33,965 nt of DNA from a virus (taxonomy: Duplodnaviria; Heunggongvirae; Uroviricota; Caudoviricetes), in IMG/VR virus record IMGVR_UViG_2563366827_000005, one strand, 5' to 3'. Shown one piece after another: positions 1 through 27,290 of the stretch (its first letter is position 1; every line of letters starts with the position of its first letter). The notes under the pieces were generated by a model. The model was not told the DNA's origin and ran no database searches. It saw nothing but the letters and a program-made list of their open reading frames with translations. Position numbers and translations under genes: made by a program.

Positions 1-1362
1 ATGTTTAAACCGGAACTCCTTTCCCCGGCGGGAACGCTGAAAAATATGCGTTACGCTTTCGCTTATGGCGCAGATGCTGTTTATGCGGGCCAGCCGCGTT
101 ATTCCCTGCGTGTGCGCAACAACGAATTCAACCACGAAAATCTTCAGCTCGGCATCAATGAAGCCCACGCGCTGGGGAAAAAGTTTTATGTCGTGGTCAA
201 CATTGCACCGCACAACGCCAAGCTGAAAACCTTTATCCGTGACCTGAAACCGGTGGTGGAAATGGGGCCGGATGCGCTGATTATGTCCGATCCAGGGCTG
301 ATTATGCTGGTGCGTGAGCACTTCCCTGAAATGCCGATCCACCTTTCGGTGCAGGCTAACGCCGTGAACTGGGCGACGGTGAAATTCTGGCAGCAAATGG
401 GCCTGACCCGCGTGATCCTCTCTCGCGAGCTGTCGCTGGAAGAGATTGAAGAGATCCGCAATCAGGTGCCGGATATGGAGATCGAGATCTTCGTTCACGG
501 CGCGCTGTGCATGGCCTACTCCGGTCGCTGCCTGCTCTCTGGCTATATCAACAAGCGCGACCCGAACCAGGGCACCTGCACCAACGCCTGCCGCTGGGAG
601 TACAACGTCCAGGAAGGGAAAGAAGATGATGTTGGCAACATCGTACACAAGTACGAGCCGATTCCGGTGCAAAATGTTGAGCCGACGCTGGGTATCGGCG
701 CACCAACCGACAAAGTGTTTATGATCGAAGAGGCCCAGCGTCCGGGCGAGTATATGACCGCGTTTGAAGATGAGCACGGCACTTACATCATGAACTCGAA
801 AGATCTGCGCGCCATCGCCCATGTAGAACGCCTGACCAAAATGGGCGTGCATTCGCTGAAAATCGAAGGTCGTACCAAATCTTTCTACTATTGTGCACGC
901 ACCGCACAGGTTTACCGCAAAGCTATCGATGACGCCGCTGCGGGAAAACCGTTCGATACCAGCCTGCTGGAAACTCTGGAAGGTCTGGCGCATCGTGGCT
1001 ATACCGAAGGTTTCCTGCGTCGTCATACTCACGACGATTATCAGAACTACGAATACGGTTATTCAGTTTCTGACCGCCAGCAGTTTGTTGGTGAGTTTAC
1101 CGGTGAGCGCAAGGGGGACCTCGCGGCGGTAGCGGTGAAAAATAAATTCTCCGTTGGCGACAGCCTTGAGCTGATGACGCCGCAAGGCAACATTAATTTT
1201 ACCCTTGAGCACATGGAAAACGCCAAAGGCGAAGCTATGCCGATAGCACCAGGCGATGGTTATACTGTGTGGCTCCCGGTCCCGCAGGATCTTGAGCTCA
1301 ATTACGCGCTGCTGATGCGTAATTTCTCCGGGGAAACCACGCGTAATCCCCACGGTAAGTGA
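1..1362 (+). CDS. yegQ: U32-family peptidase-like protein YegQ (tRNA hydroxylation-associated), host gene, complete
   Basis: 453-aa ORF starting MFKPELLSPAGTLKNMRYAFAYGADAVYAGQ, recognised as enterobacterial YegQ; GC-rich host-like composition; lies outside the att repeat. Confidence 0.85.
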   Translation: MFKPELLSPAGTLKNMRYAFAYGADAVYAGQPRYSLRVRNNEFNHENLQLGINEAHALGKKFYVVVNIAPHNAKLKTFIRDLKPVVEMGPDALIMSDPGLIMLVREHFPEMPIHLSVQANAVNWATVKFWQQMGLTRVILSRELSLEEIEEIRNQVPDMEIEIFVHGALCMAYSGRCLLSGYINKRDPNQGTCTNACRWEYNVQEGKEDDVGNIVHKYEPIPVQNVEPTLGIGAPTDKVFMIEEAQRPGEYMTAFEDEHGTYIMNSKDLRAIAHVERLTKMGVHSLKIEGRTKSFYYCARTAQVYRKAIDDAAAGKPFDTSLLETLEGLAHRGYTEGFLRRHTHDDYQNYEYGYSVSDRQQFVGEFTGERKGDLAAVAVKNKFSVGDSLELMTPQGNINFTLEHMENAKGEAMPIAPGDGYTVWLPVPQDLELNYALLMRNFSGETTRNPHGK

Positions 1363-3591: not shown

Positions 3592-6039
3592 TTAACCGTC
3601 ATGCATCATGCTGGCACGGGCGCGCGCACGTTTATCCCGCTCGTATTTTTCGAGCGCATCCTGTAACTGGCGGTCAAGCGGTGTCCCCGGCGCAGTACCG
3701 CCCGTCAGGCTGATGTGATATTCGTTTTTACTCTGGTCCACATAAGAGCGGCCAGCCGGTGCCGTGACCGGCTGATAAGCCTGATAACCTGCATAAGAGC
3801 TGGTCGCCGGAATATAACCACCGCTGCCATACGTGGCGGCTTGAGTTCTGGCGGCGGTCTGGTCAAGTGTGCCTGACTCTTTGTTGATGACGCCGAGTTT
3901 TTCCAGTACCCAGTCAATACCGCCGCGCAGTTTGTTGAACGCATTAAGCGGCAGCATCAGCGCGTCAGCCAGTGCCTGCCCGAACATGACGCCCGTGTCA
4001 CGGCAACGGTTCAGGGTGTCCTGGGTGGCTTTGACCGGGGCAATCAGGTTTTTAAACCACTGCCACGCGGCCTGTAACTTTTCACCCAGCCAGTCAAACA
4101 CCGGCTTAAGTGGCGTGAACAGTTCCCCCACTGGCGCAAATGCTGCTTTCAGCCCTTCAACCACACCGCCAAAGAATGCGCTGACAGGCTCCCAGTATTT
4201 ACGGATAAGCAACGCCCCGGCGACAATGGCGGCCACCACAGCCACAACCGGCCAGCTAATCGCCCCGATGGCCGTCATAACAGCACTGCCAACCGTCGTG
4301 AAGATTGCCCCCATTGCGCCTGCTGCCGCGATGATGGCATTAATGCCGGTGATAACCGGCCAGGCTACAAGACCAATTGCACCGATGATGCCAATAAGCG
4401 CCAGTGCGCCACCGACAATAAGGCCGATGGTTGACGCCAGTGATTTGTTTTTCTGGATCCAGCCGTCGAGTTTTAACACATACTTTGTGGCCGTCTGCGT
4501 GAGATTACGCAGTGCGCCTTCCTGCTGGTCAAACAGGTCAGTCCCCACCGCCTCATAAGCAGACTGAAACTCCTTAAAGTCACCGCCTAGGTTGTCCTGC
4601 ATGATATTTACCAGCTCGGCGGTCTTCCCGTCTGAGGCTTTAAACGCAGCGGTCAGTTTGTCCAGCTTTCCGGTTGAGGCGGCAGTCATCAGCACGGCGG
4701 CGGCTGAGCTGGCCTCCTCCCCGAAAATAGTTTTCATGTATTCAGCCTGCTGGGCAGTACCGAGCCGGTTTTTCTCAAAACTGGCCTGCATTTCTTTCAG
4801 AATGGTAAATATTGGCCGGGTGTTTCCCTTGCTGTCTGAGGTTTTCACTCCAAGCTCTTTGAGTGCATCCCATGCTTTTCCCGTCGGTGCCTGCAGGCGG
4901 CTTAACACGGCACGGCTTCCCGTCCCCGCCATTGAGCCTGTGATTTTTGCATCATGCAGCGCCCCGACCATTGCGGCGGTTTCTTCAATGCTGACACCGG
5001 CATTTTTTGCCACAGGTGCGGCATAGGTCAGCGCATCGCTCATGCCGTCAAAATCGGCGGCGGTTTTGTTCATCGTCATGGAGAGAACATCCCCGATATG
5101 AGCGACCTTATCGTTTGAAAGCTGAAAGGCGGATTTCATCCCCATCAGCAGGGCGGCGTTTTCTTCCATCGTGCGGCGGTTCGCCAGCGCCATATTCAGC
5201 GTGACCGGCGTTGCCGCCTGAATGGCATCAACATCCCCACCCGCTTTCGCGATGATTATCTGTGCACCGGCCGCATCATCCGCCGAGGCGGCGGTATTGT
5301 CGCCGAGCTGGCGCGCCTGTTTGCGTAGTGCGGTCATTTCGGCGGAGTCTTTTGCCACTCCGAGCACGGCCTGCAATTCTGAGTTTTTCTGCGCAAACTC
5401 ATAACCGGGCATCAGCAACTTAACTCCGGCCATCGTTCCCGCCGCCGCAATCCCCACACCGGCAGCGCCTACTGAGGCCATATTTCCGGCCAGTTCCTTT
5501 CCGGCCTGATAACGCTGTTTGACTGCGTTAAGTTTTGCCTGTTGCGCACTGACACGCGCCAGCGCGTCGCGCTGACGGTTAAGCTGTGCGGTGGTTTCAC
5601 TGATACGGTTTTTCAGTCCCTGCTCATCATGTGCAAGATTGCGGGTATTAATTCCCACAGCGGCCAGTTCCCGCTGCTGGCGTTTAACGGAATCCGTCAG
5701 GCGGTTATATTTCGCCTGTAAGTCCTCCGCCGCTCGCTTTGCGGATTCCAGCACTTTCGCCTGAGCACTGGTCGGACGTTCGGTGTTTTTAAACTGTGTG
5801 GCAAGGGCTTCGGCTTCCTGCCGTGCCTTTTCAAGTGCATGACCAGTCACGGCGAGCTGCGCACTGGTCTTGCGAAATCCCTCAATACGGGATGCGTGAC
5901 CGTTCAGCTCGCGCAGTGATTTTTGTGTTTCCCGGATATCCCCCGACAGCGACTTGCTCACTGTGCGGATGGATTTAAACGGGCGGGATGCCTGGTCAAC
6001 AGCCCTGAGCAATACCTGTAATTTTACATTGTTACTCAT
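3592..6039 (-). CDS. T: Tail tape measure protein T
   Basis: 815 aa, Ala/Gly-rich with hydrophobic central segment, coiled-coil N-terminus; P2 gpT length and position. Confidence 0.9.
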   Translation of the reverse strand: MSNNVKLQVLLRAVDQASRPFKSIRTVSKSLSGDIRETQKSLRELNGHASRIEGFRKTSAQLAVTGHALEKARQEAEALATQFKNTERPTSAQAKVLESAKRAAEDLQAKYNRLTDSVKRQQRELAAVGINTRNLAHDEQGLKNRISETTAQLNRQRDALARVSAQQAKLNAVKQRYQAGKELAGNMASVGAAGVGIAAAGTMAGVKLLMPGYEFAQKNSELQAVLGVAKDSAEMTALRKQARQLGDNTAASADDAAGAQIIIAKAGGDVDAIQAATPVTLNMALANRRTMEENAALLMGMKSAFQLSNDKVAHIGDVLSMTMNKTAADFDGMSDALTYAAPVAKNAGVSIEETAAMVGALHDAKITGSMAGTGSRAVLSRLQAPTGKAWDALKELGVKTSDSKGNTRPIFTILKEMQASFEKNRLGTAQQAEYMKTIFGEEASSAAAVLMTAASTGKLDKLTAAFKASDGKTAELVNIMQDNLGGDFKEFQSAYEAVGTDLFDQQEGALRNLTQTATKYVLKLDGWIQKNKSLASTIGLIVGGALALIGIIGAIGLVAWPVITGINAIIAAAGAMGAIFTTVGSAVMTAIGAISWPVVAVVAAIVAGALLIRKYWEPVSAFFGGVVEGLKAAFAPVGELFTPLKPVFDWLGEKLQAAWQWFKNLIAPVKATQDTLNRCRDTGVMFGQALADALMLPLNAFNKLRGGIDWVLEKLGVINKESGTLDQTAARTQAATYGSGGYIPATSSYAGYQAYQPVTAPAGRSYVDQSKNEYHISLTGGTAPGTPLDRQLQDALEKYERDKRARARASMMHDG

Positions 6040-6459
6040 TCGTGTTTCCGCTTCGCCGGAGCGCCTTTTCGCGCCATGTGATGAGTTCGGTCAGGCTCAT
6101 GGGATACAGTTCTGATGGCGGCCAGTGAAATATCACTGCCACATCCGCCATCAGGTCATCGACCGAGAGATTTTTCGGAAACGTCACTGCACCGAGTTCG
6201 GCGACAAAAAACCAACCACCTTACCGGCCAGCGCCACAAGGTCAGGCAGTTCCAGCGCGGCGACTTCCTGCTCGGTCAGCATCGGTGCCGTCATGCGCGG
6301 CAGCACTTTAATCAGTGCATCGACTTCGGAGTTCGCGACTGCAGCCAGACTGACACCGCGCAGCGTCCCGGCATTGGGTTTCATCAGCGTGACCTGTTCG
6401 ATAACCTGCTCACCACGTTTGACCGGATTGTCCAAGGTAATGACGTTTTCTTTGTTCAT
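6032..6459 (-). CDS. Tail assembly chaperone E+E' fusion produced by programmed -1 ribosomal frameshift
   Basis: Hand translation of the -1 frame from the slip site gives ...GFF-VAELGAVTFPKNLSVDDLMADVAVIFHWPPSELYPMSLTELITWREKALRRSGNTNE-stop, total 142 aa, ending at TAA 6032..6034 and overlapping the T start by 8 nt. Confidence 0.75.
6184..6459 (-). CDS. E: Tail assembly chaperone E (in-frame product)
   Basis: 91 aa ending ...KVVGFLSPNSVQ; slippery TTTTTTG lies near its 3' end; P2 gpE length. Confidence 0.85.
   Translation of the reverse strand: MNKENVITLDNPVKRGEQVIEQVTLMKPNAGTLRGVSLAAVANSEVDALIKVLPRMTAPMLTEQEVAALELPDLVALAGKVVGFLSPNSVQ
6205..6211 (-). promoter_or_regulatory. Slippery heptamer T-TTT-TTG (minus strand) for the E/E' -1 frameshift
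   Basis: caaaaaa on + strand equals TTTTTTG on the coding strand, in the GGT-TTT-TTG (G-F-L) context near the end of E. Confidence 0.75.
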
Positions 6460-6515
6460 GGTTTTCTCACTTCTGAATCGGGGTTAACCGGTCAGCCAGG
6501 CTGACCGGATGAAAA

Positions 6516-7034
6516 TCACAGGCCGATATTGCGGCGGTGTTGCTCCAGCCGGTCGACGCCGTTCACCTTCTCAATCATGTTGATGGTGTCGATTTCGACC
6601 AGCTCCTTACCGTCCATCGTCAGCCGGAAATAGGTGCAGACCACGGAGATTTTCGACTCGGTGTCTTCTCCCTGTTTGCCCTCGCCGGTGTCGATTTCTT
6701 TCTGACGTCCACGCATGACCACCTCGACGGCCACCGTTTCGCCGGTATCGTCGCGCTGGTAAGAGCCTGCAAAACGAATCGGTACGGCATCCACACCGGT
6801 TGCGGCGTAAAGCTCCCAGATAACCGAATCCGGGAAACCACCGAGCGACCACTCCATTGACAGCGCATCGTCATCAAGGCCGAGGTCTACCGGTGCGCTG
6901 CCGTTCATCCCCGCACCGCGATAGTTTTCGAGCTTACGGGTCAGTTTTGGCAGCGTGACGGACTTTGCAACGCCCTGATAGCTGTAGCCGTTCAGAAAGA
7001 CGTTCATTAACTTGAGTTTGCGCGGCATTGCCAT
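6516..7034 (-). CDS. FII: Tail tube protein FII
   Basis: 172 aa, P2 gpFII length and synteny. Confidence 0.85.
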   Translation of the reverse strand: MAMPRKLKLMNVFLNGYSYQGVAKSVTLPKLTRKLENYRGAGMNGSAPVDLGLDDDALSMEWSLGGFPDSVIWELYAATGVDAVPIRFAGSYQRDDTGETVAVEVVMRGRQKEIDTGEGKQGEDTESKISVVCTYFRLTMDGKELVEIDTINMIEKVNGVDRLEQHRRNIGL

Positions 7035-7046
7035 CGGTCAGGCTCC

Positions 7047-8237
7047 TTAATTGCTATTAACCGAAGTGACCAGACTTGCCAGGTATCTGGAAGTAATACG
7101 CTGGCGCAGGGTCAGGTTTTCGAGAGGAGGCACCGGGGTATAGTCGTAGTCGATATACAGTTTTCCGGCCTTGAGGGTTTCCGCATCGTTGGATTCTTCG
7201 CTGAACCAGCAGGTCGCATCCACGATATAGCCGTTTGTTTTCAGCTCACGGAATTTGGCATTGATGCCGTCAACGATGTCGCGAATCAGCGTTGCGGTGA
7301 TGGGCTTGTCCACCGCCCACATGTGCGCCTCAGCCATCGTATCGGCCAGCACCTGCGCGGTGCGGGTGTAGTTTTCAAAGAGGAACAGCGGGTCATCAGA
7401 GCAGGTACGGTTACCCCAGAAGCGTAAACCGTCACGGCGAATCAGCGTTGTGACCCCTGACTCGTTCAACAGGTCAGCATCGGTGCCGGACTCCTGCAAA
7501 TCCCAGAATACAGATGCGCTGATGCCGGTAACACCGTTCACCCCGACATTGGACAGAGTTTTATGCCAGCCCTGCTCCTGGTCGATTTTAGCGCGCAGGC
7601 CCAGTGCACGGGCAGTGGCATACGCGGTGGCGGTGGTACTGGTGACCGTATCCCATGCGAGGAAATCCGGCCAGATGACCATCAGCTCACGCTGGCTGAA
7701 ATTCTGGCGGTAGGCTTTCACCTCGGAAATAGTCTTACATCCCCATGCGCTGATATACCCGAAAGCACGCAGCTTCTGACAGACAGATGCCAGTGCAACA
7801 GCCACCTCTTTGGTATCCAGTCCCGGCACGCCGAGAATACGCGGTTTAACACCGGTTACCGACTCCGCCGCCAGCAGGGCTTTCAGTCCGGTGTACTGAC
7901 CGTTTTCGTCGGTGGTGCCGATGATATTGGAAACGGTCTGCGCGAGTTTCGTTTCTTCGTCGTCGCCGGTGCCGTCTTCCACACGTACGACAACGGTGAC
8001 CGGTTTTGACTGGTCGGCGATGGCCTGCAACGATGCCGCCAGCGTGCCTTTTTTACCAGCCTTTGCAATTGCGCTCTGCACATTGGTAATCAGCACCGGT
8101 TTATTGAGGGGGAAGGTTTCCGCATCTGCATCGCTGGCCGTGCAGACCATGCCGACAATGGCCGTGGATACGGTGGAAATGACGCGGGTGCCGTCGTTAA
8201 TCTCCAGCACCTGCACGCCGTGATGATAGTCACTCAT
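7047..8237 (-). CDS. FI: Contractile tail sheath protein FI
   Basis: 396 aa, P2 gpFI length and synteny, first gene of the F-E-T-U-D operon. Confidence 0.9.
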   Translation of the reverse strand: MSDYHHGVQVLEINDGTRVISTVSTAIVGMVCTASDADAETFPLNKPVLITNVQSAIAKAGKKGTLAASLQAIADQSKPVTVVVRVEDGTGDDEETKLAQTVSNIIGTTDENGQYTGLKALLAAESVTGVKPRILGVPGLDTKEVAVALASVCQKLRAFGYISAWGCKTISEVKAYRQNFSQRELMVIWPDFLAWDTVTSTTATAYATARALGLRAKIDQEQGWHKTLSNVGVNGVTGISASVFWDLQESGTDADLLNESGVTTLIRRDGLRFWGNRTCSDDPLFLFENYTRTAQVLADTMAEAHMWAVDKPITATLIRDIVDGINAKFRELKTNGYIVDATCWFSEESNDAETLKAGKLYIDYDYTPVPPLENLTLRQRITSRYLASLVTSVNSN

Positions 8238-8680
8238 CCGTTTAACTCCGTGGTTAATGGGTGCAACTATTTTCTGTTGTGCAGAGCATGAGACGCTATT
8301 TGACCTGGCTGGTCAGGGGATGAAACAACAGATAAAGAAAATGCGGGCAATTCGCCCGCCTGTCCTGATTTGTACACACTCATTTTCCGACTGACTATTT
8401 AGATAGCCGAAACGCTATCAAATCTGACAGTCTGCTTTGAGCGAGGAGCAAAGGTTAGACCAGACTTATCTTTAGGGATGTTTTCTACCCTCATGTTGAC
8501 GTTATTTTTAAGCGATAAATCTATTGTTATGGAGCTGATTATATTTTCAGACACTAATTTGGATTACTTCATATTAATCTGGCCGATATATGAAAGGATC
8601 TATTACAGCCAGATTTAGGATAAGTTTATGCTCTTCCTATATAATTTTAAGTATCAGCTTTAGATTCTGCTGCACCCGCA

Positions 8681-9166
8681 TTACCAACCTCGCTCTTTAA
8701 GCCTTTGCTGCACATGTGATGCTGTCATTTTTAGAATATCAGGTAGAATAATTTCATTACCTTGAGAAGGTTGAAACGAGGCATTACGATTGGCAAAGAG
8801 GTCATGAAACCTAGTGTCTGATGTAATCATGACGGGAAGATTGTTATATCCCCGGTCGTTGAACTGATCTGCAGTCAAATCAACAATCATTCCATCCACG
8901 ACAAGCCAAGCATGTGAATTACCGTTTGAAAGACCGCTGGCGGGGGACTTATGATCAGATTCATAGTAATATCCTGCGAGTACTTCAGAGACTATCCCGA
9001 ATTGCTGATAAAGCAAATAAGCAAGCAGTTTCGATGTATCCCCGCAGCATCCCACTGGAAAGTTCGAATTTCTAAAGGATGACAGCCGTGAATGATCTTT
9101 TTTGGTCATCTTCTCAAGTGCTTCACGCACATCAACACAAAAAATTTTTAACTCATCTTGATTCAT
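8681..9166 (-). CDS. Cargo gene 2: small protein with transglutaminase-like (papain-fold) Cys-His-Asp signature; function unknown, candidate effector
   Basis: 161 aa; motifs VGCCGDTSKLLAYLL (Cys40/41 at a helix start), NSHAWLVVDG (His85) and IVDLTAD (Asp) match the TGL-superfamily pattern GxCxx[FY]A ... HAWxEV ... D[PA]T; AT-rich; ATG with AAGGT Shine-Dalgarno. Confidence 0.45.
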   Translation of the reverse strand: MNQDELKIFCVDVREALEKMTKKDHSRLSSFRNSNFPVGCCGDTSKLLAYLLYQQFGIVSEVLAGYYYESDHKSPASGLSNGNSHAWLVVDGMIVDLTADQFNDRGYNNLPVMITSDTRFHDLFANRNASFQPSQGNEIILPDILKMTASHVQQRLKERGW

Positions 9167-9252
9167 CTAGTTACCTTTTATTGTCTACACAACCATAGAA
9201 TTAAATTTAATTGGCCCGTAATGCACTATCATTTAACTACTAAATAGAAAAG

Positions 9253-10038
9253 TCAAATAGGATTAAAACGTAGCGCAAATTCTCCATATTTTTTTTCAGC
9301 CCGATGAAACTTCACATGGCTTAGACCATTTTCACTACATATATTTTTGATTTTTGCAATATCCTGTTCCAGCGTTTTCAAACCAAAAAAAACATCAGTT
9401 ATTGCCTCTGGCTTAATCTTATAGGCTCCAATATTACTTTTATAAACTCTAATCTCCTCTTCATAATTCCAATCCATTGATTTCGTAGAGAGTGTGTCGA
9501 GTATTGATTTTTTAGGGTCTCTAAGATAATTTAATGGAATATATTGCTTCATATATACTATGTTTTGGGGGGTTATAAAGAACTCTGGATCCTTAGCAAT
9601 ATTGAGTTTTATAGCAACTCCGGTATGGTTCTCCGCATAATGAGACCATAAAAGAACATTTTCATTAGTTTTAGATAGCGATAAAATGCCATGGGCATTG
9701 ACGGCATTTGTTTTTATATTTTTAACTAGATCATTAAATGCTTGGCTGTTTTCTTTATACACATCTATTAAGTTCTGCTTTGCCTTCTTGGTTAATCCAT
9801 TCTGATATGAATATAACCAACAAGTAAAGTCTGATAAAGAGTATTCTTTTTCCTCATCCAGCATACAATCAAATGGATCATTAAAATTTTCCGCTGATGA
9901 AAAGTAAAATTCTTTTTTTTGAAGAATATCACAGGCTTTATCTATAGTTCTGAACTTGTAAACTGATTCTGGGTAGGTGCCTTCATTTATTCCTTTAAGG
10001 ATTAAATCTTTTTTATCCAACCATCTTATTCCTGACAT
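9253..10038 (-). CDS. Cargo gene 1: DUF2971-family protein; function unknown
   Basis: 261 aa from the ATG at 10038, preceded by a strong SD (AAGGAGG, about 7-nt spacer); the ORF-track start at 10059 is a TTG. Motifs VYKFR...FYFSSAENFNDPFD and LSLSKTNENVLLWSHYAENHTGVAI match what I recall as DUF2971 hallmarks. AT-rich. Confidence 0.5.
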   Translation of the reverse strand: MSGIRWLDKKDLILKGINEGTYPESVYKFRTIDKACDILQKKEFYFSSAENFNDPFDCMLDEEKEYSLSDFTCWLYSYQNGLTKKAKQNLIDVYKENSQAFNDLVKNIKTNAVNAHGILSLSKTNENVLLWSHYAENHTGVAIKLNIAKDPEFFITPQNIVYMKQYIPLNYLRDPKKSILDTLSTKSMDWNYEEEIRVYKSNIGAYKIKPEAITDVFFGLKTLEQDIAKIKNICSENGLSHVKFHRAEKKYGEFALRFNPI

Positions 10039-10368
10039 TTGATTCCTCCTTATTATCAATAACTTTCATTGGTCTTTTCGCACCACAATTTTAGACTAAA
10101 CACAATGCAAATCAACATGATTGTAGTGTCGGTGATTGTCTTACTGGTCACCAGATACTATACCGCTAAGATCAGATTAAAGGGAATGATTCTTTATTAT
10201 GTAGCAAACTTTAGAGGCCGGGAGTAATCGTGGGTAGCTCTGTTACACTGTTATAATGGGTTAGCATAGCCCATGTGATCAACGCCCGCTTTTGGCACAG
10301 AGCGGACTGTCAGATTAGGCTTTACTCTGTGCCATAGATATGTAAGCTCACACCAGAGTTCATACAAC

Positions 10369-10896
10369 TTATTGCGGCATTTCCGGCCATTCAGGATTTG
10401 CAGGATCCACACGACTGACCAGAACGCTGTAGCGTTCCCAAGCCTCCAGCCGTGTGCGCTCCTCCTCTGTTGCCATGTTCAGTCTGACCGCGCGCTCCAG
10501 CGGCAAAATCACGGATTCAGCATCTGCAAGAAGTCTGGCTTTCCGAATTTCTGCCTGCTGCTGTAATTCCTCTGCCGTATAAATGCGTTTAATCACTTTG
10601 CCGTCCTTAAACATCCAGCCCCCTGAAATATCCGCCCGTCGGTTAGCAGTAATATCCGCCACTTCAACCACACTTAATCCATCCGGTCTGATAGCTGTCA
10701 CATCCTTTTCCACATAGCGGATGATATTATCTTTGTCGTACGCTATTTTTATCGTGTCATCAGCAAAATACTTTTGTTCTTCGTACCAGTTCTTACCATC
10801 TTCTGTAAAAAACCAGACAACATCAAAGCCCTTTGTCAATTGATATTGTTCAACCGTTTTTGGATTACCCGCCGTAATATTTTTTAAATGCTGCAT
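10369..10896 (-). CDS. G: Tail fiber assembly protein G
   Basis: 175 aa, P2 gpG length and position directly downstream of H; N-terminal half is AT-rich. Confidence 0.85.
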
Positions 10897-10899
10897 AAA

Positions 10900-12897
10900 T
10901 TATACCTGTGCCACGTTATACCATGTCCCGTTAATGTATTTCTGCACCGGTCTGTAATATACGCCACCAATGTTATCGGCAGAGTTTGAGCCGGTATCCT
11001 GAATAATAATGCCGGAATATACACACCCGGACGGTGCCTGATGTGTCCATGTCATGCCATTGTTCGCAGGTTTGTATGTGGCAGCACCACCAAGCCGGAT
11101 ATCCCGGACATAGCGGGAATCAAAGTTACCGTAATCTGTGGGATTAACACGACCCGTAATATTTATGGTTTTATTACTTTGAATGCTACCGGAGACAAAG
11201 CGCATAACATGAACGTTATTAGCATAAACATCCAGATTACCGTCACCATTTTGTTTAAAGCCCGTGTCATTATCACCCAAAACAATTGAGTTACCGCCAA
11301 GAACACTGGATGTTCCGATGCCCAGTGCACCATTCAATTGACCTCCAGATAATGACAACGCCCCAACATCAGCAGCAGTCGGTTTAATGTGCGAACTGTA
11401 AATTACATATACAGTTCCATCTGTAAGACCTGTTGGTTTATTCGCTGTATAAGTTGGTGATGTATGAATCGTTACGCTGGCGTTACTGGTATAATCCCAC
11501 TGAATATTAACACCTGTGGCGTAATTACCTATTTCAACATAAACATCATAGGTATCACCGGATGTATTCACCCATGCAAAATTAGTAAATCCAACCGATG
11601 TCCGTCGCCATAACGCACCAGTAAGACCTTTTGGATTTCCATTTCCCGCACGAAGAACAAGTTCAGATATACCAGCCTGCATAGGGGAGTTAACATTATA
11701 TCCAGCACCACCAATCAGACTTATGTAAACCACGGAACTGGCCTGTGGCATGGTTACAGTTGCCAGCCTGAACCATCCTGTACCACCACTAAAAGACATG
11801 GTTGTTGAATTTGTTGCTCCAATATTGCGCAGGAATAATCTTTTATCAGGAATATCCGCGCCATTTTGATCTTTCTGAAGACGTTTTTCAGCATTGTCAT
11901 AGGCAGACTTCACCGCTTTTGGTGTTGCAGCCAGCGTTTCAGAATCGCTGTTGATGGCACTATTGAGCTGAACAAGACCTTTCCGCGCCGTGGTGGCGTC
12001 CTGTGCAGTGTATTTTCCGTTAGCAAGGTCATACGCTGTCTTAACCGCCTTTGGCGTTGCCGCAAGCGTTTCAGAATCGCTGTTGGTGGCGCTACTGAGC
12101 TGGACAAGACCTTTTCGCGCTGTGGTGGCGTCCTGTGCAGTGTATTTCCCATTAGCAAGGTCATATGCTGCCTTTACCGCTTTTGGTGTTGCGGCGAGCG
12201 TTTCAGACGTGCTGTTGGTGGCGCTACTGAGCTGGACAAGGCCTTTTCGCGCTGTGGTGGCATCCTGCGCAGTGTATTTCCCGTTAGCAAGATCATACGC
12301 GGCCTTTACCGCTTTCGGCGTTGCGGCCAGTGTTTCAGACATGCTGTTGGTCGCATTGCTTAACTGAGTAAAACCTTTTGCGGTCAGCGAGGCGTCCGGG
12401 TGACGTCGTGACTGTCCATGCTCTGCAATTTTGTCATCAACGTAATCCTGCGTCGCCATCACCGTTGTGGTGTCAATGGTCAGCGCCACTGAGGCCACAC
12501 TGCTGACGATGATGACCATGCGACAGGTCTGCGAACGCCCTGAGCCTTCGGCAAGAGCTGGCTTATAACTTTCGGCCATGTTCGCCACGGCAATTAATGT
12601 TCCCGCATCATCGTACAGGCCAAGCTCACGCATCCAGAAACCGCCCACCTCCGGCGGAATAACCAGCTCTGCAATAATATAATTACTGTTTCGTTTGTCC
12701 TGGCTGATTTTGTTCAGCGCATGTCGCCAGACTTCATGGATAAGCCCGGTCTGTCCGGCATCCGGGACAGGCAATTTACCACCTCCATCCCCGACGGCCA
12801 TCGTGGTAATGTTGACCTTCCGCCCTCCCGGCGCGGTTGCCGCTGCCAGCTTTGCTGCACCGGCAGTGGTGATAACGGTTCTGAATTTTGTGCTCAT
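10900..12897 (-). CDS. H: Tail fiber protein H
   Basis: 665 aa; N-terminus P2 gpH-like, central tandem 44-aa repeats, C-terminal receptor-binding region of lower GC. Confidence 0.85.
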   Translation of the reverse strand: MSTKFRTVITTAGAAKLAAATAPGGRKVNITTMAVGDGGGKLPVPDAGQTGLIHEVWRHALNKISQDKRNSNYIIAELVIPPEVGGFWMRELGLYDDAGTLIAVANMAESYKPALAEGSGRSQTCRMVIIVSSVASVALTIDTTTVMATQDYVDDKIAEHGQSRRHPDASLTAKGFTQLSNATNSMSETLAATPKAVKAAYDLANGKYTAQDATTARKGLVQLSSATNSTSETLAATPKAVKAAYDLANGKYTAQDATTARKGLVQLSSATNSDSETLAATPKAVKTAYDLANGKYTAQDATTARKGLVQLNSAINSDSETLAATPKAVKSAYDNAEKRLQKDQNGADIPDKRLFLRNIGATNSTTMSFSGGTGWFRLATVTMPQASSVVYISLIGGAGYNVNSPMQAGISELVLRAGNGNPKGLTGALWRRTSVGFTNFAWVNTSGDTYDVYVEIGNYATGVNIQWDYTSNASVTIHTSPTYTANKPTGLTDGTVYVIYSSHIKPTAADVGALSLSGGQLNGALGIGTSSVLGGNSIVLGDNDTGFKQNGDGNLDVYANNVHVMRFVSGSIQSNKTINITGRVNPTDYGNFDSRYVRDIRLGGAATYKPANNGMTWTHQAPSGCVYSGIIIQDTGSNSADNIGGVYYRPVQKYINGTWYNVAQV
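11893..12378. repeat. Tandem direct repeat, about 3.7 copies of a 132-bp unit, inside tail fiber gene H
   Basis: Near-identical 132-bp units visible in the DNA (compare 11941.. with 12073..); they encode KG[LF][VT]QLSxATNSxSETLAATPKAVKAAYDLANGKYTAQDATTAR four times in frame. Confidence 0.85.
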
Positions 12898-25073: not shown

Positions 25074-27290
25074 ATGGAACTTAGATTAAAAAATGTTACC
25101 AGTTATAAGAAAGACGCCTTCACAATACTGAATCTTGAAAAAAGAGTAAACATACTATACGGCCAAAATGGTTGTGGCAAATCTACCATTTCAAATTATT
25201 TCTACGACTCTACACACACAGATTATAACGAGTGTGAATGTACCCTTCTTGACAATTACAAACCTCTTGTTTACAACACTAAATTTATTGAAGATAATTT
25301 CTACAATGCACAGGAACAAAAAGGTGTTTTTACATTAAGTAAAGAAAATGCAGATATTGAAAAACAATTAATTGAAAAAGAAGCAATTAAACAGCAACTT
25401 ACAGAGCAATATAGACAAAAAAAAGGAGTGTTATTGAAATTAGAAGCAGAAATGGAAAAAAAAGAAAATGAATACATCGAATCGATCTGGAAAAAAACAG
25501 AACCAATCAGAAACTCTGTACTAAAAACCTTAATGAAAGGTAAAGTTGGCTATAAAAGACCTTTTTTTGAGATGATAAAATCATCCTCACCAATCACCTT
25601 TATTAATTTAAATGATATAGCAAAAGAATACTCTATACTATTAGAAAATAGAAACAATGAAACCGCATTAATAACTCCTTTACATCCATATACCCCATCA
25701 ATTGATGATGTAAATACATTAGCAACACCTATAATAGATACAAGCAATAGCTATTTATCAGAAACCATTAATAAACTTCATAATCTTGACTGGGTAAAAA
25801 AAGGTAAAGAACATTATTTAGACGGTTCTACATGTCCGTTTTGTCAGGAAAAAACTATTAGTCACGAATTTTTAAATGCCCTTAAATCAATATTTGACGA
25901 AAGTTATTCAAAGAAAGTAAAACAGCTCTCAGATATAAAGTCAGTTTATGAGAAAAATACCATATATCATTTTAACGAAATACAAAACAATATATCATCA
26001 TGTGCACTAATCAATGAGAAAGATAAAGAGATCATTATTTCCAATATTAAAATATTGCAAAACATTGCAGAAAAAAATTTAATAAACATTATTGATAAGA
26101 TCAACAATCCATCAACATGCGTTACATTAGAAATTGATAAAGAACTAGAAAATCATGTTCAGGAAAGCATAGACGCTGTTAACAAAAAAATAAGAGACAT
26201 AAATGATAAGGTTAAAAAACTCAAAGAGTATGAGAATAAAATCGGAAAACAAGTTTGGGGGGCTCTCCATGCTTTTTGCAGCGATGATTTAGAGAATTTA
26301 TCCAAACACAAAGAAAAATTCTTTGATATCAAAAAGAAAGTTCATGATGAATTAAATAATATTGAGCAACAAGGAAAAGAAAATAATCTCACAATAAAAG
26401 CATTGCGAGATAAAATATCTAACATTGATTCTACGATAGACTCAATAAACACCCATTTAAAAAATCTAGGGATCTCTGGTTTTTGTATTGAAAAACATGC
26501 AGAAAGAAAAGATATGTACATTATATCTCGACCAGGGCATACAAAAAACCAAAATGTTTATAGATCTCTTAGCGAAGGTGAAAAAACACTAATAACGTTT
26601 CTTTATTTTTTAGAGTGCTGTAAAGGTAAAACCGATAAAAATGATACCGATAGCAGGGATATTTTTATTGTTATTGACGATCCAATATCTAGTCTATCGC
26701 AAAACTATGTCTACGACATCGCATCAATTATTCATCACCACATTATAAAAAATGAATCAACAAAGAAGGTATTAATCCTTACTCACAATCTTTATTTCTT
26801 TCATGAACTTATTAAGCTATCTCCTAAAAGCAGAGAAGACAAACTATTTAAGAAAAACTATTATCTAGGTAGAGTAACGAAAAATGATTTTAGTATAATT
26901 ACTGAAATACAAAAAAACAGCATACAGAATGAATATCAATCTTTGTGGCAAATATTAAAAGATGCAAAAGATGGCAAAGCAAACAAAATCATAATACCTA
27001 ATATTATGAGAAACATACTAGAATATTATTTTGCATTTGTTCATAGAACAGATGCTCTACAAGATGAATTAACAAAGTTGGCACGCGACGATAGCAACAG
27101 TGATTTCAAAGCATTCTACAGATACATTAACAGAGGTTCTCACTCTGATGCGGTAAATATTACTGATATGGGCGACATAGACCCAGATAAATACCTAAAA
27201 CAATTGAGAACAATATTTTCAGCTACTGGTGACGAAATGCATTATTTAAAAATGATGGACGAACTAGAAGAGGAGAACGTTACCGCTTAG
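25074..27290 (+). CDS. Cargo gene: ABC/Rad50-like ATPase with long coiled-coil insert (CxxC) and C-terminal PrrC/RloC-like putative anticodon-nuclease domain; candidate single-gene anti-phage protein
   Basis: 738 aa; Walker A GQNGCGKST (aa 30-38), about 460-aa Lys/Glu-rich insert with CPFC (aa 254-257), ABC signature LSEGEK (aa 499-504), Walker B IFIVIDD (530-536), D-loop SSLS, H-loop LILTHN, C-terminal RNILE (646-650) and RYINRGSH (683-690); no Toprim motifs; strongly AT-rich; occupies the tin/old position. Confidence 0.55.
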   Translation: MELRLKNVTSYKKDAFTILNLEKRVNILYGQNGCGKSTISNYFYDSTHTDYNECECTLLDNYKPLVYNTKFIEDNFYNAQEQKGVFTLSKENADIEKQLIEKEAIKQQLTEQYRQKKGVLLKLEAEMEKKENEYIESIWKKTEPIRNSVLKTLMKGKVGYKRPFFEMIKSSSPITFINLNDIAKEYSILLENRNNETALITPLHPYTPSIDDVNTLATPIIDTSNSYLSETINKLHNLDWVKKGKEHYLDGSTCPFCQEKTISHEFLNALKSIFDESYSKKVKQLSDIKSVYEKNTIYHFNEIQNNISSCALINEKDKEIIISNIKILQNIAEKNLINIIDKINNPSTCVTLEIDKELENHVQESIDAVNKKIRDINDKVKKLKEYENKIGKQVWGALHAFCSDDLENLSKHKEKFFDIKKKVHDELNNIEQQGKENNLTIKALRDKISNIDSTIDSINTHLKNLGISGFCIEKHAERKDMYIISRPGHTKNQNVYRSLSEGEKTLITFLYFLECCKGKTDKNDTDSRDIFIVIDDPISSLSQNYVYDIASIIHHHIIKNESTKKVLILTHNLYFFHELIKLSPKSREDKLFKKNYYLGRVTKNDFSIITEIQKNSIQNEYQSLWQILKDAKDGKANKIIIPNIMRNILEYYFAFVHRTDALQDELTKLARDDSNSDFKAFYRYINRGSHSDAVNITDMGDIDPDKYLKQLRTIFSATGDEMHYLKMMDELEEENVTA

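What the first reader, a model, noticed from the sequence alone, without database searches (positions are those of the whole stretch)
8238..10368. AT-rich two-gene cargo cassette (DUF2971-like protein plus transglutaminase-like Cys-His-Asp protein) in the FI-G (Z/fun) hotspot
Two co-oriented genes (9253..10038, 261 aa; 8681..9166, 161 aa) sit between tail sheath gene FI and tail fiber assembly gene G, separated by 86 bp and flanked by unusually long non-coding spacers (443 bp and about 330 bp). Their composition is conspicuously more AT-rich than the phage backbone. The first product carries what I recognise as DUF2971 hallmarks (YKFR...FYFSSAENFNDPFD and LSLS...LLWSHYAENHTG). The second has a compact transglutaminase/papain-like catalytic signature (GCCGDTSKLLAYLL, SHAWLVVDG, VDLTAD), suggesting a Cys-His-Asp hydrolase or transferase. 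This locus is a known hotspot for anti-phage cargo in P2-like phages. I do not recognise a described defence system built from this pairing, so it is a candidate novel system, possibly a sensor/effector or toxin/modulator pair.
Basis: partly seen in the sequence, partly recalled or inferred. Interest (0 to 1): 0.85.

Follow-up and report, generated by a model that had tools for sequence, protein, structure and literature searches.

The report
Two-enzyme cargo cassette in P2 prophage
A P2-like prophage carries, in a known cargo slot, a mobile AT-rich block encoding a DarT-like ADP-ribosyltransferase-fold protein from an already listed candidate anti-phage family, followed by a small cysteine enzyme of unknown role that usually occurs alone, so this is a reasonable but not radically new defence candidate.

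Summary
In detail: two co-oriented minus-strand genes (9253-10038, 261 aa; 8681-9166, 161 aa; 86-bp gap) lie between the tail sheath gene FI and the tail-fibre assembly gene G. Cargo GC is 0.35 against 0.52 for the backbone. The true cargo is 8463-10279, bracketed by the hotspot's inverted repeats; the rest of the "long spacers" is conserved P2 backbone.

Gene A passes Pfam DUF2971 and matches PADLOC candidate PDC-S31 (E 2.6e-46). Its confident model is closest to Tpt1 and DarT, so it has an ART fold.

Gene B is a papain/transglutaminase-fold enzyme. Its triad is C41-H85-D96, invariant in 134 of 134 relatives. It passes no curated family threshold.

The pairing is real but shallow. The block recurs in Serratia and Klebsiella in other mobile elements. 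Otherwise the two families occur apart: 0 of 47 genome loci and 1 of 25 viral loci with B carry A, and 1 of 80 viral loci with A carries B.

Best reading: a DUF2971 ART-type abortive-infection gene (a relative, Aristaios, is validated as a single gene) plus an autonomous accessory enzyme that travels with it. A coupled toxin/modulator pair is not excluded. Interest is moderate.

The parts
10288..10316 (.). Left arm of the Z/fun hotspot inverted repeat. Its inner half travels with the cassette into other elements.
   Evidence: Inverted repeat I1, 29 nt, 79% complementary. It corresponds to the annotated 'left inverted repeat' of P2-EC67 AJ512685. Homology with Serratia and Klebsiella begins inside this arm.
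10039..10279 (-). Leader upstream of gene A, presumed to hold the promoter and 5' UTR of the A-B operon.
   Evidence: About 81% identical to the Serratia copy, with long blocks invariant across E. coli, Serratia and Klebsiella. A sigma-70-like site at 10115-10088 is not conserved in Serratia, so the real promoter is unassigned.
9253..10038 (-). Gene A: 261-aa DUF2971 / PDC-S31 protein with an ADP-ribosyltransferase fold closest to Tpt1 and DarT.
9167..9252 (-). 86-bp A-B intergenic region with the ribosome-binding site (AAGGTAAC) of gene B and no terminator.
   Evidence: Spacing is kept in Serratia (86 bp) and is 78 bp in Klebsiella. The -35 of the promoter-like site at 9256-9228 is deleted in Klebsiella. 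No terminator-like site lies between the genes.
8681..9166 (-). Gene B: 161-aa cytoplasmic papain/transglutaminase-fold enzyme with triad C41-H85-D96.
8463..8680 (-). Trailer of the cassette, containing a conserved hairpin at 8576-8615.
   Evidence: 79% identical to Serratia. Inverted repeat I9 is conserved in all three copies. No T-run follows it, so its function is unassigned.
8421..8449 (.). Right arm of the hotspot inverted repeat.
   Evidence: Homology with the Serratia and Klebsiella copies ends inside this arm.
8343..8359 (-). Terminator-like hairpin (GCGGGCGAATTGCCCGC plus a T-rich tail) in conserved P2 backbone, downstream of the cassette and upstream of FI.
   Evidence: It lies within the segment that is 92% identical to the P2-EC67 Z-region.
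7047..8237 (-). FI tail sheath gene (flank, P2 backbone).
   Evidence: RefSeq annotation of the near-identical locus.
10369..10896 (-). G tail-fibre assembly gene (flank, P2 backbone).

Best explanation
The interval holds a 1.8-kb AT-rich cassette, bounded by inverted repeats, in the Z/fun cargo slot of a P2-like prophage. It is probably one operon encoding two separable enzymes. Gene A is a DUF2971 / PDC-S31 protein with an ADP-ribosyltransferase fold closest to the nucleic-acid-directed enzymes DarT and Tpt1. I infer that it is held inactive in the lysogen and is triggered by an infecting phage. It would then use NAD+ to ADP-ribosylate DNA, RNA or a component of gene expression. This would block phage transcription or replication in an abortive-infection manner, as reported for the single-gene DUF2971 system Aristaios. 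Gene B is a small cytoplasmic Cys41-His85-Asp96 enzyme of the papain/transglutaminase fold, so a deamidase, protease or acyl-transferase type of chemistry acting on a protein target. Its family normally lives alone as a prophage moron. It therefore most likely acts autonomously, with an unknown target, either as a second defence function or as a lysogen-fitness function. It is probably not a dedicated partner of A. The A-B linkage is a recent association that moves as one block between mobile elements. Shown here: the gene structures, family matches, folds, invariant catalytic residues, cassette boundaries and co-occurrence statistics. Inferred: enzymatic activity, substrates, phage triggering and anti-phage phenotype.

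For: Context: this is a known variable Z-region. The full cassette is in 12 of 5426 E. coli genomes, while the flanks are in 1047. Cargo GC is 0.35 against 0.52. The other hotspot of the same prophage also carries a PADLOC candidate, PDC-S06.
Against: No experiment exists. PDC-S31 is an untested guilt-by-embedding candidate. The motif I histidine of classical ARTs is not conserved here (K27; PMC12522546). The A-B block is conserved in order and spacing across three different mobile elements at 71-77% identity, with no terminator between the genes, which would also fit functional coupling. dN/dS of 0.43 (A) and 0.55 (B) shows only moderate constraint. B's substrate and role are unknown, and a virulence or fitness role is equally compatible with its moron positions.
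Confidence: 0.5

Rival explanations
1. Coupled two-gene system. A is an ART toxin or effector, and B is its modulator: an antitoxin-like neutraliser, an activating protease or deamidase, or a reversing hydrolase. This would be functionally analogous to DarT-DarG but with a cysteine enzyme in place of the macrodomain.
For: Gene order (ART first, partner second), the 78-86-bp spacing and co-transfer are conserved in E. coli P2-like prophages, a Serratia element and a Klebsiella lambdoid prophage. No terminator lies between the genes, and the promoter-like site in the gap is not conserved, so they are probably one operon. A and B diverged to a similar degree within the clade (71-74% and 76-77%). 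B also sits 50 bp downstream of another single-gene candidate effector, ApeA-like PDC-S58, in Providencia.
Against: Both families are overwhelmingly found apart. A relative of A at 60% identity lacks B, so B is not needed to tolerate this ART. Aristaios and the PDC-S31 definition are single-gene. B's usual position is as a lone moron. No fused A-B protein was seen among the 150 best family representatives.
Confidence: 0.2
2. B is a lysogenic-conversion or virulence-type enzyme, a deamidase or protease acting on a host or eukaryotic target like the prophage-borne SseI and Cif. Only A is defence-related, and the two are unrelated passengers.
Against: B is only about 160 aa, has no signal peptide or translocation domain, and is present in hosts of very different lifestyles, including river-water E. 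coli, plant-associated Erwinia and Pantoea, and Firmicutes. Several neighbours are defence genes (McrBC, bSEFIR, ApeA-like).
Confidence: 0.15
3. B is a counter-defence or self-protection factor of the mobile element. It would inactivate a host immune protein, or protect the prophage's own lytic cycle from the neighbouring effector.
For: B rides on prophages and ICEs next to varied effectors (DUF2971, ApeA-like, bSEFIR, DUF2806). The cysteine-enzyme chemistry suits inactivation of a protein target.
Against: B often has no adjacent effector at all. Neighbours of distant relatives are heterogeneous and often housekeeping genes. There is no similarity to any described anti-defence protein.
Confidence: 0.1

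Closest known systems
PADLOC PDC-S31 (single-gene phage defence candidate) / Pfam DUF2971 (PF11185)
   Same: Gene A matches the PDC-S31 HMM over its full length (E 2.6e-46) and passes Pfam's DUF2971 threshold. It shares the invariant NDP, WSHYA and ExExR motifs.
   Different: PDC-S31 is an untested candidate defined as a single gene. Here the gene travels with a downstream cysteine enzyme in a P2 hotspot.
Aristaios (Lactococcus plasmid single-gene Abi-like system, DUF2971; PMC11381338)
   Same: The same Pfam domain and the same predicted ART fold. Both are carried on a mobile element. Aristaios shows that a DUF2971 protein alone can block phage, at the transcription stage.
   Different: 316 aa against 261 aa, and a Gram-positive plasmid against an enterobacterial prophage. 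No Lactococcus record appeared among the 30 listed rows of the plasmid tblastn, out of 488 matching records, so any relationship is distant. Aristaios has no partner gene.
DarT of DarTG toxin-antitoxin defence systems
   Different: There is no macrodomain antitoxin. B has a papain/TGase fold and no macro-domain Pfam hit. There is no sequence-level match to any PDB chain. The motif I histidine is replaced.
Transglutaminase-like / papain-like Cys-His-Asp enzymes (SseI, protein-glutaminase, LapG, Atu2299/DUF2026, YunG)
   Same: Gene B shares the fold, and its invariant Cys (at a helix N-terminus), His and Asp (on consecutive strands) are arranged in the same order.
   Different: B passes no curated family threshold: YunG 24 bits against 27, Transglut_core 13 against 23. 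It is a minimal protein of about 160 aa with no extra domains, and its substrate is unknown.
P2 Z/fun variable region (e.g. P2-EC67 Z-region, AJ512685)
   Same: The same insertion point between G and FI, and the same flanking inverted repeats.
   Different: Different cargo. None of the 50,697 deposited phage records carries this cassette.

Membership tests
Pfam DUF2971 (PF11185) | Score at or above Pfam's gathering threshold | tested here: met
   25 bits against a cutoff of 22, covering profile positions 1-89 of 89. RefSeq names the identical protein 'DUF2971 domain-containing'.
PADLOC PDC-S31 | Full-length match to a PDC-S31 HMM | tested here: met
   PDLC04990, E 2.6e-46, residues 23-259 against profile positions 6-256 of 259.
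PADLOC PDC-S31 | Anti-phage activity | not testable with these tools
   PDCs are untested candidates. Only the distant DUF2971 protein Aristaios has been validated.
ADP-ribosyltransferase superfamily (DarT/Tpt1-like) | ART fold | tested here: met
ADP-ribosyltransferase superfamily (DarT/Tpt1-like) | Catalytic motifs I (H or R), II (Y or STS) and III (E or ExE) | tested here: inconclusive
   Y134 and E193xE195 are invariant, as described for DUF2971. The motif I position is K27/R29 and is not conserved. The geometry in the model could not be inspected.
ADP-ribosyltransferase superfamily (DarT/Tpt1-like) | NAD+-dependent transfer of ADP-ribose | not testable with these tools
   Needs biochemistry.
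DarTG toxin-antitoxin | Adjacent macrodomain antitoxin (DarG) | tested here: not met
   The downstream gene has a papain/TGase fold and no macro-domain hit in Pfam, NCBIfam or PADLOC.
Transglutaminase-like / papain-like cysteine enzyme superfamily | Fold with a Cys-His-Asp triad in the canonical order | tested here: met
Pfam Transglut_core (PF01841) / YunG (PF24585) | Score at or above the gathering threshold | tested here: not met
   Transglut_core 13.3 bits against 23. YunG 24 against 27 for the window protein. All 21 members match YunG at E 0.01 or better (best 1.3e-5), i.e. weakly.
Obligate two-gene system (A+B) | Consistent co-occurrence of the two families across divergent homologs | tested here: not met
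   The genes are paired only in E. coli, Serratia and Klebsiella. Among loci with B, 0 of 47 genome loci and 1 of 25 viral loci carry A. Among loci with A, 1 of 80 viral loci carries B.
P2 Z/fun hotspot cargo | Located between G and FI, flanked by the hotspot inverted repeats, with variable content among P2-like phages | tested here: met
   The flanks are in 1047 E. coli genomes and the full cassette in 12.

The most novel reading that the evidence does not exclude
A and B form a new two-component immune module: a DarT-like ADP-ribosyltransferase whose activity is gated, reversed or licensed by a minimal Cys-His-Asp enzyme. More broadly, the B family would be a portable accessory that plugs in downstream of different abortive-infection effectors (DUF2971/PDC-S31 here, ApeA-like/PDC-S58 in Providencia) to control them.
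Probability: 0.15. Interest if true: 0.7.

Novelty: new member of a known kind. Interest (0 to 1): 0.42.

Why it matters
If gene A protects against phages, it would give the first enterobacterial, prophage-borne validation of the large DUF2971/PDC-S31 family: 488 plasmid records matched in one tblastn search, and the family is reported in 5981 species (PMC12522546). It would also provide a tractable E. coli model for asking what these DarT-like enzymes modify. Gene B stands for a family of about 1700 clusters of minimal cysteine enzymes with a perfectly conserved triad and no known function. The family recurs as prophage morons, so finding its target would explain a common but unannotated piece of prophage cargo. 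The inverted-repeat-bounded block seen in three different mobile elements also illustrates how hotspot cargo is shuttled as a unit.

Tried and rejected
1. NCBIfam gave nothing for either protein.
2. Profile searches of both families against PDB sequences found no meaningful hit, so the fold assignments rest on predicted structures.
3. Rfam found nothing credible in 8100-10500. The only hit was STnc320 at 22 bits against a gathering score of 50. No tandem or notable direct repeats were found. I therefore dropped the idea of an RNA antitoxin or ncRNA in the long spacers.
4. Conservation of the leader and trailer (about 80%) is close to the synonymous divergence (dS 0.27-0.48), so it is not evidence of extra function.
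5. A survey of 113 neighbours of distant B relatives showed no recurrent partner. Scans of co-oriented neighbours in closer loci also showed no shared family.
6. I tested whether the 466-aa protein upstream of the Klebsiella cassette is the same ApeA-like protein as in Providencia. It is not.
7. The P2 hotspot papers do not mention this cassette, DUF2971 or a transglutaminase-like gene. The older Z-region papers are not held.
8. The 'YunG' literature search returned only author-name matches.
9. The AlphaFold database fold library was unavailable.
10. Triad and NAD-pocket geometry could not be measured because model coordinates are not exposed.

Full report
**Observation.** Gene A is 9253-10038 (261 aa) and gene B is 8681-9166 (161 aa), separated by 86 bp. 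They lie between the tail sheath gene (7047-8237) and the tail-fibre assembly gene (10369-10896). RefSeq annotates the near-identical E. coli locus the same way. The cargo is strongly AT-rich, with GC 0.352 against 0.517 for the rest of the window. The flanks match the deposited P2-EC67 'Z-region' record, which annotates left and right inverted repeats around a different ORF. The same repeat is present here at 8421-8449 and 10288-10316. P2 backbone is conserved up to about 8462 and from about 10280. Much of the 'unusually long spacers' is therefore backbone, including a terminator-like hairpin at 8343-8359. The cargo proper is about 1.8 kb (8463-10279). It is rare: 1047 of 5426 complete E. coli genomes carry the flanks but only 12 carry the cassette, and none of 50,697 phage records has it.

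**Is it a pair?** The A-B block is conserved as a unit. In Serratia quinivorans A is 71% and B 76% identical, the gap is again 86 bp, DNA homology spans window 8431-10319 at 81.5%, and the block sits next to an integrase/GPA element. In a Klebsiella variicola lambdoid prophage A is 74% and B 77% identical, with a 78-bp gap. In both, homology starts and ends inside the inverted-repeat arms, so the whole IR-bounded cassette moves between different elements. No terminator separates A and B, and the promoter-like site in the gap is not conserved, so co-transcription is likely.

Beyond this shallow clade the two families are found apart. A-type genes without B:
- Providencia vermicola, 60% identity.
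- A Pantoea ICE-like plasmid region, 43%.
- Aliarcobacter, 34%.
- 79 of 80 IMG/VR loci.

B-type genes without A:
- Downstream of an ApeA-like PDC-S58 gene in Providencia.
- Between IS66 and McrBC in Pantoea.
- About 0.7 kb downstream of a DUF2806 gene.
- Convergent with a bSEFIR/TIR gene in an Erwinia ICE.
- As a lone opposite-strand moron between the terminase and lysis modules of lambdoid prophages.
- 47 of 47 GTDB loci and 24 of 25 viral loci.

Neighbours of distant B relatives are heterogeneous, with no recurrent partner.

**Spacers.** The leader (10039-10279) and trailer (8463-8680) are about 80% identical between the E. coli and Serratia copies. That is close to the coding DNA (82-85%) and to the synonymous divergence (dS 0.27-0.48). 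No Rfam family, tandem repeat or convincing small ORF explains them. They probably hold the promoter and 5' UTR plus a conserved hairpin (8576-8615), but nothing demands an extra element. dN/dS is 0.43 for A and 0.55 for B, which indicates moderate purifying selection.

**Mechanism.** Most likely (about 0.5): A is a phage-triggered, NAD+-dependent ART of the DarT/Tpt1 type that modifies nucleic acid or the expression machinery and aborts infection, as Aristaios appears to do. B is an autonomous Cys-His-Asp enzyme of unknown target that has become linked to A in one lineage. The folds, motifs and distribution are shown here. Activity, trigger, substrate and phenotype are inferred.

Rivals:
- A coupled toxin/modulator pair, DarTG-like in logic. 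It is supported by the conserved block and the probable operon structure. It is weakened by the independent distributions and by the relative of A at 60% identity that lacks B. About 0.2.
- B as a lysogenic-conversion or virulence deamidase. About 0.15.
- B as a counter-defence or self-protection factor. About 0.1.

**Novelty.** A is a new member of a known candidate family in a known hotspot. B belongs to an uncharacterised but sizeable family. The specific pairing is undescribed in the literature searched, but the evidence does not make it a system. Interest is moderate (0.42). It is a sensible experimental candidate and a useful entry point to two unstudied enzyme families, but it is not a surprise to a specialist.

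Noticed in passing
window 25074-27290 (+): The prophage's other cargo hotspot, after the capsid-portal gene Q and before replication gene A, carries a 738-aa AAA_13 ATPase. It matches PADLOC candidate PDC-S06 (E 6.9e-255), has weak PrrC/LmuB/AriA similarity, and is very AT-rich (GC 0.296). This prophage therefore carries untested PADLOC single-gene candidates in both hotspots.
   Followed up: partly
window 8421-8449 and 10288-10316; L012 about 3848-5740; L065 about 4720-6600: The inner halves of the Z/fun inverted-repeat arms travel with the cassette into a Serratia integrase/GPA element and a Klebsiella lambdoid prophage. Homology breaks inside the arms. This suggests recombination at a core within the repeat, so the cargo behaves as a discrete IR-bounded mobile block.
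   Followed up: partly
L071 / L096 (IMGVR_UViG_3300045988_117647), L096 about 5079-5495: A 98.9% identical copy of the cassette has a 1-bp deletion in a poly-A run and a 2-bp deletion about 360 nt later in the DUF2971 gene, which shifts the frame across its middle. Gene B is intact. Either A is inactivated and B retained, or these are assembly errors.
   Followed up: partly
L001 1458-3760 (E. coli GPEC1042); insertion point corresponds to window about 8191-8195: In several chicken E. coli (GPEC) genomes an IS21-family ISEc12 (istA/istB) is inserted into the 5' end of the tail sheath gene right next to the cassette. The prophage is defective there but keeps both cargo genes.
   Followed up: no
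L002 4550-6468 (Providencia sp.): A gene B relative (48% identity) lies 50 bp downstream of, and co-oriented with, an ApeA-like HEPN protein matching PDC-S58, right after a prophage integrase and before a VgrG-PLD type VI cluster. This is a second case of B sitting directly behind a 'single-gene' candidate effector.
   Followed up: partly
window 10900-12897 (-), especially about 11900-12400: The tail-fibre protein H contains four tandem copies of a roughly 40-aa repeat (…ATPKAVKAAYDLANGKYTAQDATTARKGLVQLSSATNS…), visible in the translation.
   Followed up: no
window 1-1362 (+): A Peptidase_U32 family gene at the left edge. It appears to be host chromosome flanking the prophage end.
   Followed up: no
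window 8576-8615: A conserved 8-bp-stem hairpin (AATCTGGC…GCCAGATT) about 65-105 nt downstream of gene B is kept in the E. coli, Serratia and Klebsiella copies. It is not followed by a T-run and its function is unknown.
   Followed up: no
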